Shown: positions 6,529-9,500 of the stretch, piece by piece
Layout: the number at the start of each line of letters is the position of its first letter
Position numbering within the stretch: position 1 is the first letter of the stretch
Origin: Escherichia coli
GTDB taxonomy: Bacteria; Pseudomonadota; Gammaproteobacteria; Enterobacterales; Enterobacteriaceae
Assembly (NCBI RefSeq): GCF_024298765.1
Contig: NZ_CP101210.1
DNA length: 64,000 nucleotides
Direction: 5' to 3' (one strand)
Program-made: the position numbers

Positions 6529-9500
6529 ATCACCGACCAAATTCGAAAAGCCTGCTCAGCGAGCAGGCTTTTTTGCATTTGTTGACCCGTCCTGAATAGC
6601 GTTGACACGTTCCTGACTTAAATCCGGAGAACGTGATGATGACTGAGTTCAAACGCACCCAACGTGATTATCCTCTATCCTTTAAAATAGCTGTTGTTGA
6701 GCAGGTTGAAAAAGGCGAGATGACCTATAAACAGGCCCAGCAGCGGTATGGCATTCAGGGGCGCTCCACCGTTCTTGTCTGGTTACGTAAATATGGCCGG
6801 CTTGACTGGAGTCCTGGACTTCCTGACCTGGTGAAGAGGAAACTGCCTGTGACTCAGACAACTATCCCGCTCACACCCGAGCAAAGAATCAGGGAACTTG
6901 AAGCGCAGCTTGAGCTGGCGAACCAGAAAGCTGAGTTTTTTGAGTCAGTTATCAATGTCCTTAAAAATGATTACGGGGTGAGTATCGTAAAAAAGCGGCC
7001 CGGCAAGTCCTCGCGCAAAGTCCGGCCCCCAAAATAACTGTGACGCGTGCATGTCTGTTCCTGGGACACAGCAGACAGGCATGGTATCAGGACAACACAA
7101 GGCGCAGAAAACGGCAGGAACATCATGCTCAGGTTCTTGATTTTGTTGCCCGTGTCAGATGTCGTCAGCCCCGAATCGGTGCGCGTAAGCTGCACTATCT
7201 GCTGAACACTCAGGCCGATAAAAGGCTGAATATCGGGCGAGACCGCCTGTTTAACCTGCTCGATGAATACCGACTCCTGGTGCCAGTAAAACGGGCATAT
7301 CACAAAACTACCAACAGTCATCATCGCTTCTACCGACATCCAAACCTGCTTAAACCAGGCCCTGAACAGGTTACCGCTCTTGAACCAGAACAGGTCTGGG
7401 TCGCCGATATTACTTACCTTCCACTGCGCAATGGTACGGCCTATCTGAGTCTGGTCACCGATGCCTGCTCCAGAAAAATTATGGGCTACCATGTTGGGGA
7501 AAACCTGCAGACAGAAAATGTGGTAAAAGCGTTCAGACAGGCGCTGAGGCTGAGAAAAACGACGAGTCCCCTGGTGCATCATTCTGACAGGGGGCTGCAA
7601 TACTGTTCAGCGCTCTATCAGTCAGTTCATGAAAGAAATGGAATAACCTGTTCAATGACGGATGGTTATGACTGCTACCAGAACGCACTGGCTGAGCGAA
7701 TAAACGGTATCCTGAAAAATGAGTTTTTACTCTCGCGTCCTGCAGACCTGGCGCAGGCCCGGGAAATGGTCAAAGAGTCCGTGGCAATTTATAACCATGA
7801 GCGGCCACATCTGGCTCTGAAATACAAAACACCCGATGACGTTCATCAGGCGTTTTACAGACAGAAAAGTGTCAACGTATATCAGGACTAGTCATGTAGC
7901 CTATGAGGATGAGAACCTCCGGGGGCAGGGAGGTTCGACTCGAGCGAAGCGAGAGAACGTTGCGCCAGCAACGGCCCGCAGGGCGAGCCACGAAGTGGCG
8001 AGTAATCCTCTATCACCGACCAAATTCGAAAAGCCTGCTCAACGAGCAGGCTTTTTTGCATCTGTAGCCCATGAGGATGAGAACCTCCGGGGGCGGGGAG
8101 GTTCGACTCGACGTAGGCCTGATAAGACGCGCCAGCGTCGCATCAGGCAAATGTACCGGCCCATTGTCGGATTCGGCGCGACCGCCTTATCCGATCTACA
8201 CACCACACATTTCCCTGCCAAATTTGCGCCCCATATCTCACTATCCATTAACGGATTTGTGACAGAAACCATTGTCTTTTTTTATATTTGCTTAAATCTT
8301 TTTTTGCGTTACTTATGGCTGGCGCTGGCATTTTCCGCTGTGCGTTTTAGCGTTCATGGTATTAATCGCTCAGATATCCACCTTTACCTCAGATTTTTTT
8401 CATTAAATGCATAAAACTTAATCACCAAATGTTGCTAAATATTAAGCTGATTGTTCTGGTTGTGTTGGCGTAGCACAAATTTCTCTGCTGCAAATAGCTG
8501 TTTGAAGTTTTTTTAATCTTTGTTTGTGGATTCTCACCGTTGGTGTAAATCCCGGTTGGCTGTATTGACGTTTTCACATTCTGTTGACAGATTGTAGGTC
8601 ACGAGGGGCATTTTATGGAGGATCCGCACTGTTACACTGATGTTAATTAGTACGGCATCCCCACCTCATAACGTTGACCCGACCGGGCAAAAAACAAAAA
8701 AGGTCAGGCAGCGACAACCCACTGCAAAGGGTTAAAACAACAAACATCACAATTGGAGCAGAATAATGCGTATTTCCTTGAAAAAGTCAGGGATGCTGAA
8801 GCTTGGTCTCAGCCTGGTGGCTATGACCGTCGCAGCAAGTGTTCAGGCTAAAACTCTGGTTTATTGCTCAGAAGGATCTCCGGAAGGGTTTAACCCGCAG
8901 CTGTTTACCTCCGGCACCACCTATGACGCCTCTTCCGTACCGCTTTATAACCGTCTGGTTGAATTTAAAATCGGCACCACTGAAGTGATCCCGGGCCTCG
9001 CTGAAAAGTGGGAAGTCAGCGAAGACGGTAAAACCTATACCTTCCATCTGCGTAAAGGTGTGAAGTGGCACGACAATAAAGAATTCAAACCGACGCGCGA
9101 ACTGAATGCCGATGACGTAGTGTTCTCGTTCGATCGTCAGAAAAACGCGCAAAACCCGTACCATAAAGTTTCTGGCGGTAGCTACGAATACTTTGAAGGC
9201 ATGGGCTTGCCGGAGCTGATCAGCGAAGTGAAAAAGGTGGACGACAACACCGTTCAGTTTGTGCTGACTCGACCGGAAGCGCCGTTCCTCGCTGACCTGG
9301 CAATGGACTTCGCCTCTATTCTGTCAAAAGAATATGCTGACGCGATGATGAAAGCCGGTACACCGGAAAAACTGGACCTCAACCCAATCGGCACCGGTCC
9401 GTTCCAGTTACAGCAGTACCAAAAAGATTCCCGTATCCGCTACAAAGCGTTTGATGGCTACTGGGGCACCAAACCGCAGATCGATACGCTGGTTTTCTCT

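What the first reader, a model, noticed from the sequence alone, without database searches (positions are those of the whole stretch)
7895..8110. Nested partial copies of the tRNA-Pro 3' end and terminator downstream of proK
Seen in sequence: 8005..8061 repeats the last 19 nt of proK (AATCCTCTATCACCGACCA) plus its terminator with one mismatch. A 49-bp element occurs twice (7895..7943 and 8062..8110), ending in GGGAGGTTCGACTCGA, which resembles the proK T-arm 5' half (GGAGGTTCGAATCC). Read together, 7920..8023 looks like the 3' half of a tRNA-Pro with a roughly 67-bp insertion in the T-loop. Inference: such tRNA 3'-end duplications are typical scars of integrase-mediated insertion and excision (attL/attR remnants) or of local tandem duplication. 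The site may be, or have been, an integration hotspot, and the IS sits exactly between the terminator and the first 49-bp element.
Basis: partly seen in the sequence, partly recalled or inferred. Interest (0 to 1): 0.5.

Follow-up and report, generated by a model that had tools for sequence, protein, structure and literature searches.

The report
proK-linked RtT repeat split by IS
The nested tRNA-Pro end copies are a known tRNA-linked tandem repeat called RtT, annotated at this exact spot in E. coli, here cut off from its tRNA by a strain-specific insertion sequence; it is not a scar of phage or island integration.

Summary
The repeats are not integrase scars.

- **Identity.** Window 7889-8022 is a full-length match to Rfam RF00391 (RtT RNA): 100 bits against a threshold of 45. 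NCBI annotates "RtT sRNA" at this position in identical genomes.
- **Architecture.** With the insertion sequence removed, the locus is a head-to-tail repeat of period 168 bp, about 1.64 units. It starts at the last 19 nt of proK and is cut off by a REP element. This matches the classic tyrT 178-bp repeats.
- **Variation.** E. coli genomes carry 0, 1 or 2 full units in exact 168-bp steps, roughly 50%, 40% and 7% of about 119 sampled genomes.
- **Insertion sequence.** The IS is a 1,312-bp IS3-family element at 6583-7894 with a 3-bp TGT duplication. It sits at this site in only 71 of 5,426 genomes.
- **No integrase evidence.** No island was seen at the site, only several insertion sequences. No phage carries a proK 3'-end fragment.
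- **Wider family.** RtT units follow tRNA-Tyr, Pro(CGG), Pro(TGG) and Lys genes across Enterobacterales. Each is a cognate T-arm split by a conserved ~65-nt structured insert.

Function remains unknown.

The parts
6463..6539 (+). proK, tRNA-Pro(CGG). Its last 19 nt (6521-6539) begin repeat unit 1.
   Evidence: ARAGORN; Rfam tRNA model 60.7 bits.
6545..6578 (+). Intrinsic terminator of proK (13-pair stem, T-run), part of repeat unit 1.
   Evidence: Terminator scan; inverted repeat I5.
6580..6582 (.). Left copy of the 3-bp target-site duplication TGT.
   Evidence: IS ends defined by matches to other copies that start at query base 3-4; flanks read.
6583..7894 (+). IS3-family insertion sequence, 1,312 bp. 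orfA 6633-7037, orfB 7040-7891, imperfect terminal inverted repeats TGAC..GTCCTGA..CGTTGACAC.
   Evidence: NCBIfam IS3 transposase 260 bits against a cut-off of 160. RefSeq annotation 'IS3 family transposase, programmed frameshift'. Inverted repeat I1. At this site in 71 of 5,426 genomes.
7895..7897 (.). Right copy of the target-site duplication TGT.
7895..8022 (+). Complete RtT unit. The Rfam hit spans 7889-8022; its first 6 nt belong to the IS end.
   Evidence: RF00391, 100.4 bits, model positions 1-130 of 130. RefSeq ncRNA 'RtT sRNA' at the same place.
7905..7921 (+). Antisense copy of the proK T-arm (GAGGATGAGAACCTCCG), inside the first 49-nt element.
   Evidence: Inverted repeat I3, 88% complementary to 6511-6527. 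Covaries with the cognate tRNA across families.
7929..7938 (+). Direct copy of the T-stem 5' strand plus the first half of the T-loop (GGAGGTTCGA).
   Evidence: Direct repeat D3; invariant AGGTTCG in alignment A1.
7939..8003 (+). Conserved ~65-nt insert in the T-loop position. It forms four small hairpins.
   Evidence: Minimum-energy fold; covariation in helices 4 and 6; conserved across Tyr, Pro and Lys units.
8004..8022 (+). Copy of the last 19 nt of proK (AATCCTCTATCACCGACCA); start of repeat unit 2.
   Evidence: Direct repeat D1.
8028..8061 (+). Second copy of the proK terminator, with one loop mismatch.
   Evidence: Direct repeat D1 and inverted repeat I6.
8063..8111 (+). Truncated 5' part of a second RtT unit: the second 49-nt element, ending 5 nt into the insert.
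   Evidence: Direct repeat D2, 96% identical. Same truncation point in K-12, O157 and strain 961.
8116..8196 (-). REP/BIME element that bounds the array.
   Evidence: Rfam naRNA4 RF02564, 68.5 bits.

Best explanation
The interval is the proK-linked copy of the RtT tRNA-linked repeat, interrupted by a recent IS3-family insertion.

**What one unit is.** One 168-bp unit holds, in order:
- the last 19 nt of proK;
- the proK terminator;
- a short spacer;
- an antisense copy of the proK T-arm;
- the T-stem 5' strand with half the T-loop;
- a conserved ~65-nt insert made of four hairpins.

The next unit then starts again with the tRNA 3' end. An RtT is therefore a tRNA-derived pseudo-T-arm carrying a structured insert in the T-loop, and it ends exactly like its tRNA (...CCA plus terminator).

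**How the array forms and changes (inferred).** The array grows and shrinks by unequal recombination or slippage between the 108-nt direct repeats. This gives alleles with 0, 1 or 2 full units. The same exchange with the neighbouring tRNA gene keeps the RtT ends identical to that tRNA.

**Transcription (inferred).** At tyrT the unit is released as a stable by-product of tRNA 3'-end processing. At proK it lies behind an intrinsic terminator, so it can only be made by read-through. In this strain the IS separates it from the proK promoter by 1.3 kb.

**Status of the steps.** Shown: family membership, architecture, copy-number alleles, IS boundaries and duplication, and cognate-specific ends across four tRNA families. 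Inferred: the recombination mechanism and the transcription and processing route. Unknown: any cellular function.
For: - **Family membership.** Full-length RF00391 hit at 100.4 bits against a threshold of 45. RefSeq labels it 'RtT sRNA'.
- **Same architecture elsewhere.** K-12 has the same array without the IS. The K-12 tyrT locus has four RtT hits of 133-137 bits, each ending in the tyrT 3' end.
- **Copy-number alleles.** The distance from the proK start to REP is 181, 349 or 517 nt, which is exact 168-bp steps. About 119 rows in two evenly spaced samples gave roughly 50% with 0, 40% with 1 and 7% with 2 units.
- **IS.** Present at this site in 71 of 5,426 genomes. A near-identical strain (E06) carries the site without the IS.
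- **Other species.** A capped scan returned 120 loci, all but three from Enterobacterales or Gilliamella. Of the three others, two carry no RtT-like 3' end; the third (L121, Martelella alba) lies 84 nt after a tRNA-Tyr and was not followed up. The RtT 3' end matches the upstream tRNA type in 126 of 127 intact cases, across Tyr-GTA, Pro-CGG, Pro-TGG and Lys-TTT.
- **tRNA origin.** Whole tRNA-Lys and tRNA-Tyr bodies carry the insert in the T-loop.
- **Structure.** The minimum-energy fold equals the six-helix model, -50.9 kcal/mol, z = -2.66. Across 85 sequences 87% of cells are paired. Three-state compensatory changes track the tRNA type: AU 38, GC 29, CG 7. None of 500 shuffles reached the observed covariation score.
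Against: - No expression or processing data for the proK copy are available here.
- The unit lies after a strong terminator, and about half of E. coli genomes lack it, so it may be neutral.
- Covariation between the antisense T-arm and the tRNA-like ends could come from DNA-level copying of the cognate tRNA rather than selection on RNA pairing.
- RNAalifold prefers a different pairing, T-stem 5' strand with 3' strand across the insert, so the fold is not settled.
- Allele frequencies come from samples of about 60 rows each, not a full census.
- The origin of the T-loop insert is unexplained.
Confidence: 0.88

Rival explanations
1. The duplicated tRNA 3' ends are attL/attR remnants left by insertion and excision of an integrase-encoding phage or genomic island at proK.
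For: - The duplication starts inside the T-loop and runs to CCA. This is the segment that T-loop-targeting tyrosine integrases duplicate (established knowledge, not tested here).
- The spacer is polymorphic among strains.
Against: - The repeat extends 89 nt beyond the tRNA end and is strictly tandem with 168-bp steps.
- No integrase gene lies between eptB and dppA in the window or in K-12.
- Every disrupted allele examined carries only an insertion sequence: IS621, ISEc13, IS1397, or one of two IS3-family elements.
- No phage record carries a partial proK 3' end.
- Homologous arrays lie behind tyrT and behind Lys and Pro(TGG) tRNA genes in many genera, with insert cores that group by tRNA type. 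That points to old vertical lineages.
Confidence: 0.04
2. RtT is a functional tRNA-mimic regulatory RNA. Its antisense T-arm pairs either with its own tRNA-like 3' end or with the cognate tRNA or pre-tRNA, and so titrates tRNA-processing factors or senses the state of that tRNA.
For: - The ~65-nt insert and the cognate-matched antisense T-arm are conserved across four tRNA families and many genera.
- Compensatory changes occur in helices 1, 2, 4 and 6.
- Two mutually exclusive pairings are both supported.
- Papers cite Bosl and Kersten 1991 for a proposed link to the amino-acid starvation response.
- RtT RNAs are detected and differentially expressed in Klebsiella RNA-seq.
Against: - The proK copy is absent from about half of E. 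coli genomes, and a K-12 MG1655 record also lacks it.
- It sits behind a terminator.
- No target or phenotype was found in the accessible literature.
- The covariation could be a by-product of gene conversion with the tRNA.
Confidence: 0.2
3. The repeat encodes a small basic protein, like the 'protamine-like protein' Tpr annotated inside the tyrT RtT of K-12.
For: - K-12 annotation places tpr inside rttR.
- The window has an arginine-rich 54-aa ORF at 7903-8067, starting at the equivalent ATG.
Against: - Alignment A1 shows frequent 1-2-nt indels in hairpin loops, and the Tpr start codon is missing from most Lys and Pro(TGG) units.
- The proK ORF runs in a different frame past the Tpr stop and through the tRNA-end copy and terminator.
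- The pattern of conservation is paired-stem covariation, not codon periodicity.
Confidence: 0.02
4. The repeats are an ancient structural part of the dppA leader or promoter region.
For: The array lies in the proK-dppA spacer, upstream of dppA.
Against: - It is on the far side of a terminator and a REP element, more than 600 nt upstream of the dppA start codon.
- Copy number varies from 0 to 2.
- The same element follows unrelated tRNA genes with different downstream genes.
Confidence: 0.02

Closest known systems
tyrT operon 178-bp repeats / RtT RNA (rttR), Rfam RF00391
   Same: - Full-length covariance-model match.
- Located directly after a tRNA gene on the same strand.
- Each unit ends in the last 19 nt of that tRNA including CCA.
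- Tandem repetition with a partial last unit.
- Same antisense T-arm, T-arm half and insert layout.
   Different: - The ends are those of tRNA-Pro(CGG), not tRNA-Tyr.
- The period is 168 bp, not 178 bp.
- Every unit includes a copy of an intrinsic terminator, which the tyrT units lack. The proK copy therefore needs terminator read-through to be transcribed.
- The loop between the antisense and sense T-arm halves is 5 nt longer.
- Here it is cut off from the tRNA by an IS.
tRNA-gene attachment sites of integrative elements (attL/attR duplications of a tRNA 3' end)
   Same: A direct repeat of the tRNA 3' end starting in the T-loop.
   Different: - The repeat is 108 nt and tandem.
- No integrase and no cargo.
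- Copy-number steps of one unit.
- No island-bearing allele found.
IS3-family insertion sequences
   Same: - Two overlapping ORFs with a programmed frameshift.
- DDE transposase hit.
- TG...CA ends, imperfect inverted repeats and a 3-bp duplication.
   Different: - Not assigned to a named IS here.
- Other copies lie in unrelated places such as integrase genes, so it shows no specificity for RtT.
tRNA-spacer-derived small RNAs such as the 3' external transcribed spacer of the glyW-cysT-leuZ operon (recalled from memory, not tested)
   Same: A stable RNA released from a tRNA precursor by the tRNA-processing machinery.
   Different: - RtT is itself tRNA-derived and repeated.
- No base-pairing targets are known.

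Membership tests
RtT RNA / tRNA-linked repeat (RF00391) | Covariance-model score above the curated gathering threshold over the whole model | tested here: met
   100.4 bits against 45, model positions 1-130 of 130.
RtT RNA / tRNA-linked repeat (RF00391) | Lies directly downstream of a tRNA gene on the same strand | tested here: met
   In K-12 the Rfam hit starts 34 nt after the proK 3' end. In the window the same junction is interrupted by a 1,312-bp IS.
RtT RNA / tRNA-linked repeat (RF00391) | Unit ends with the 3'-terminal ~19 nt of the upstream tRNA, including CCA | tested here: met
   8004-8022 is identical to 6521-6539. The rule holds in 126 of 127 intact units from other genomes.
RtT RNA / tRNA-linked repeat (RF00391) | Head-to-tail repetition of the unit | tested here: met
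   1.64 units of 168 bp; alleles with 0, 1 or 2 full units.
RtT RNA / tRNA-linked repeat (RF00391) | Released as a stable RNA from the tRNA primary transcript | not testable with these tools
   Reported for tyrT only (Bosl and Kersten 1991, as cited in PMC3318445). No data found for proK.
Integrase attL/attR scar at a tRNA gene | Direct repeats confined to the att core and flanking foreign DNA | tested here: not met
   The repeat is 108 nt including the terminator, and encloses only 60 nt.
Integrase attL/attR scar at a tRNA gene | Tyrosine or serine recombinase gene, or its remnant, adjacent | tested here: not met
   Only an IS3 DDE transposase lies between eptB and dppA.
Integrase attL/attR scar at a tRNA gene | Some strains carry an island or prophage at the site, or a phage carries the matching attP | tested here: not met
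   About 119 sampled genomes show only IS insertions. The phage collection holds no partial proK end. These are samples, not a census.
IS3 family insertion sequence | orfA/orfB with frameshift, DDE transposase, terminal inverted repeats, short target duplication | tested here: met

The most novel reading that the evidence does not exclude
RtT units are a conserved class of tRNA-derived RNAs found behind at least four tRNA families. Each is a cognate T-arm split by a ~65-nt four-hairpin insert and preceded by an antisense T-arm. They can switch between a tRNA-like T-arm and an antisense-paired form, and act on the cognate tRNA or its processing enzymes. The tRNA-end copies could also serve as harmless decoy targets for T-loop-specific integrases or nucleases. 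I found no description of this architecture in the accessible literature, but I could not read the 1978-1999 primary papers.
Probability: 0.12. Interest if true: 0.6.

Novelty: already known. Interest (0 to 1): 0.25.

Why it matters
- **For this window, little.** The feature is an annotated, known repeat, and the IS insertion is an ordinary lineage marker.
- **Annotation.** tRNA 3'-end duplications next to proK, tyrT and the Lys and Pro(TGG) tRNA genes of Enterobacterales should not be read as integration scars.
- **Strain typing.** The 168-bp copy-number alleles and the many IS insertions make this spacer a convenient marker.
- **Open question.** RtT has had no assigned function since 1991. 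The cognate-matched antisense T-arm and the conserved T-loop insert give concrete hypotheses to test.

Tried and rejected
- **Integrase scar.** Rejected; see the rival explanations.
- **Phage attP search.** The proK-RtT sequence returned only whole phage tRNA-Pro genes and misfiled Salmonella contigs.
- **Coding potential.** A Tpr-like ORF was rejected because the frame is not conserved.
- **Rfam consensus structure.** The outer stem and the second hairpin hold. The two inner long-range helices show almost no compensatory change and are poorly formed in the proK unit. A model with a local 8-bp hairpin and two extra hairpins fits better.
- **Recent mobility of the insert between tRNA genes.** Not supported. 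Insert cores group by tRNA type: nearest neighbour of the same type in Tyr 41/41, Pro(CGG) 22/23 and Lys 13/14.
- **Literature.** Four searches found no paper on the proK copy or on RtT function beyond citations of Bosl and Kersten 1991. That paper (PMC329039) is not held. One search was badly chosen and returned mostly Rett-syndrome papers.
- **IS name.** The exact ISfinder name was not determined.
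Full report
**1. The observation**

The window carries eptB, then proK (tRNA-Pro CGG, 6463-6539), then dppA from 8766.

- The last 19 nt of proK plus its terminator (6521-6578) recur at 8004-8061 with one mismatch in the terminator loop.
- A 49-nt element occurs at 7895-7943 and at 8063-8111 with two mismatches.
- Both copies of that element contain GGAGGTTCGACTC, which is 12 of 13 identical to the proK T-arm 5' half.

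**2. What it is**

A scan against Rfam gives a full-length match of 7889-8022 to RF00391, RtT RNA. The score is 100.4 bits against a gathering score of 45, over model positions 1-130 of 130. Genomes identical to the window over 6400-8300 are annotated in RefSeq with 'tRNA-Pro | IS3 family transposase | RtT sRNA' at exactly these places.

K-12 MG1655 has the same locus without the IS. The order there is proK, terminator, 49-nt element, a ~60-nt core, the 19-nt tRNA-end copy, terminator, 49-nt element, then a REP element. This is a head-to-tail repeat of period 168 bp that begins at the last 19 nt of proK. In the window, unit 1 (6521-6582 plus 7898-8003) and the partial unit 2 (8004-8111) differ at 4 positions. 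The array ends at a REP/BIME element (Rfam naRNA4, 8116-8196).

The K-12 tyrT-tyrV locus, where RtT was first defined, shows the same design. It has four RtT hits of 133-137 bits, each ending in the tRNA-Tyr 3' end, and three of them are tandem units of 178 bp.

**3. The insertion sequence**

- Other copies of the element match from query base 3-4 to the end. That places the IS at 6583-7894, a length of 1,312 bp.
- It has imperfect terminal inverted repeats and a 3-bp TGT duplication at 6580-6582 and 7895-7897.
- orfB scores 260 bits on the NCBIfam IS3 transposase model, against a cut-off of 160. RefSeq records a programmed frameshift.
- It occupies this site in 71 of 5,426 complete E. coli genomes.
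- A near-identical strain (E06) has the site without the IS.
- Its other copies lie in unrelated places. It is an ordinary lineage-specific insertion.

**4. Variation among E. coli**

The distance from the proK start to the REP element is 181 nt in an O157:H7 strain, 349 nt in K-12 and E06, and 517 nt in strain 961. These correspond to 0, 1 and 2 complete RtT units in exact 168-bp steps. The truncated last unit is always present.

Two evenly spaced samples of 60 rows each from the ranked hits give roughly 50% of genomes with 0 units, 40% with 1 and 7% with 2. One MG1655 record lacks the unit. I did not check whether that is a real deletion or an assembly collapse.

The remaining alleles carry insertion sequences:
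- IS621, in one case with a rearrangement in O26:H11;
- ISEc13;
- IS1397;
- a second IS3-family element.

From my own knowledge, IS621 and IS1397 are known to target REP sequences, which would explain part of this clustering. No allele with an integrase or an island was seen. A search of 50,697 phage records found only complete phage tRNA-Pro genes and misfiled Salmonella contigs carrying the same 'tRNA-Pro | RtT' arrangement.

**5. The wider family**

I scanned one genome per species for a degenerate 20-base core motif. All but three come from Enterobacterales or Gilliamella. Of the three others, two carry no RtT-like 3' end. The third (L121, titled Martelella alba) lies 84 nt after a tRNA-Tyr and was not followed up.

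I combined the matches with ARAGORN in a script.
- RtT units follow tRNA-Tyr(GTA) in 65 cases, tRNA-Pro(CGG) in 31, tRNA-Lys(TTT) in 22 and tRNA-Pro(TGG) in 8.
- In 126 of 127 intact units with an upstream tRNA in the locus, the last 19 nt match that tRNA type.
- The antisense T-arm is also cognate-specific: GGGGAAGGATGAGAACCTTC for Tyr, GAGGATGAGAACCTCC for Pro and GTGCAGGATGAGAACCTGC for Lys.

In Xenorhabdus, the repeated unit is a whole tRNA-Lys body with a ~64-nt insert in its T-loop. Leclercia and a Citrobacter have a whole tRNA-Tyr body with the same insert. In Leclercia it is preceded by the spacer that normally precedes tyrV. This shows that the sequences flanking the insert are homologous to the two halves of a T-arm. 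It also indicates that tRNA genes and RtT units recombine through them.

Insert cores group by tRNA type. The nearest neighbour is of the same type in 41 of 41 Tyr, 22 of 23 Pro(CGG) and 13 of 14 Lys units, and Pro(TGG) cores are mostly nearest to Pro(CGG). These are old, locus-bound lineages rather than a recently mobile element.

**6. Structure**

The minimum-energy fold of 7895-8022 (-50.9 kcal/mol, z = -2.66) has six helices:
- the antisense T-arm pairs with the T-stem 3' strand;
- the antisense T-arm also pairs with the T-stem 5' strand;
- the insert forms four hairpins.

On an alignment of 85 diverse units (A1) this model has 87% of cells paired, and none of 500 shuffles reached its covariation score. 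The compensatory changes track the tRNA type:
- columns 18/134 show AU 38, GC 29, CG 7;
- columns 32/48 show UA 37, CG 28, GC 7;
- four of five pairs in the last hairpin show compensatory changes.

The Rfam consensus shares the outer stem and one hairpin, but its two inner long-range helices show almost no compensatory change.

RNAalifold instead pairs the two T-stem halves across the insert (AU 40, GC 30, CG 10). Two exclusive pairings are therefore possible. Because all three segments follow the cognate tRNA, this covariation may reflect copying at the DNA level rather than selection on RNA. The hairpins inside the insert are the better evidence for a structured RNA.

**7. Mechanism**

- **Shown.** Family membership, the tandem architecture, the allele series, the IS boundaries, and the cognate-matched ends in four tRNA families.
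- **Inferred: array dynamics.** Unequal recombination or slippage between the 108-nt repeats changes copy number. Exchange with the adjacent tRNA gene homogenises the ends.
- **Inferred: RNA production.** As reported for tyrT, the RNA would be released by tRNA 3'-end processing because it ends like a tRNA (Bosl and Kersten 1991, cited).
- **Different at proK.** Each unit carries an intrinsic terminator. The RtT can therefore only be made by read-through. In this strain the IS separates it from the proK promoter.
- **Function.** Unknown. Accessible papers only repeat a proposed link to amino-acid starvation and report expression in Klebsiella.

**8. Verdict**

- The tandem-duplication and T-loop-insert readings are right. 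The integrase-scar reading is not supported.
- The feature is already known and annotated.
- The residual interest is the unexplained biology of RtT itself.

Noticed in passing
L084 176-1003 (Xenorhabdus beddingii); also L026 and L096: Two normal tRNA-Lys genes are followed by at least four 171-bp tandem units. Each unit is a near-complete tRNA-Lys body with a ~64-nt RtT insert in the T-loop. ARAGORN does not call them as tRNAs.
   Followed up: partly
L113 2727-2882 (Leclercia adecarboxylata); L077 (Citrobacter sp. MGH106): A full tRNA-Tyr body carries the RtT insert. In L113 it is preceded by the spacer that normally precedes tyrV. It looks like a recombinant between a tRNA gene and an RtT unit.
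   Followed up: partly
window 8116-8196, and the same spacer in L003, L004, L005 and L131: The REP/BIME element next to the array (Rfam naRNA4) and the spacer around it collect many different insertion sequences in E. coli: IS621, IS1397, ISEc13 and two IS3-family elements. In O26:H11 the IS621 copy sits at a rearrangement that joins dppA to yijF and katG.
   Followed up: partly
NZ_CP010445.1 (an MG1655 record), hit H53: This K-12 MG1655 assembly lacks the 168-bp RtT unit that the reference MG1655 has. It is either a laboratory deletion or an assembly collapse.
   Followed up: no
window 16270-17784: Four tandem rdlD antitoxin RNA hits (80-90 bits) lie about 483 bp apart. This is a four-copy ldr/rdl toxin-antitoxin array.
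   Followed up: no
window 52928-53041, 58821-58892 and 10432-10474: Rfam hits to GadY (150 bits), ES205 (105 bits) and ES036/CssrF (56.7 bits), all on the minus strand.
   Followed up: no
L024 6522 onward (Enterobacter MAG); L095 and L109 (Xenorhabdus): Some RtT units are truncated inside the insert and joined to unrelated sequence or to a terminator, so decayed fragments of the family exist.
   Followed up: no
L008, L016, L039, L067, L089 and L101 (Citrobacter, Phytobacter, Kosakonia): One RtT subtype has a degenerate 3' end (ATCCTTACCGCTATAG...) and lies directly upstream of a tRNA-Tyr gene, with no tRNA found upstream of it in the fetched locus.
   Followed up: no
L022 and L049 (Pluralibacter); L013, L094 and L119 (Lys units): In most units the antisense T-arm reads GGATGAGAACC in its loop part. 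A few read GGAGTCGAACC, GGATTTGAACC or GGGTTCGAACC, which are closer to a true reverse complement of the T-loop. This may indicate repeated re-copying from the tRNA.
   Followed up: no
L121 619 (record titled Martelella alba): A core-motif match lies 84 nt downstream of a tRNA-Tyr(GTA) with the enterobacterial 3' end, although the record is titled as an alphaproteobacterium. The unit diverges after the second hairpin. This could be contamination or mislabelling of the assembly.
   Followed up: no
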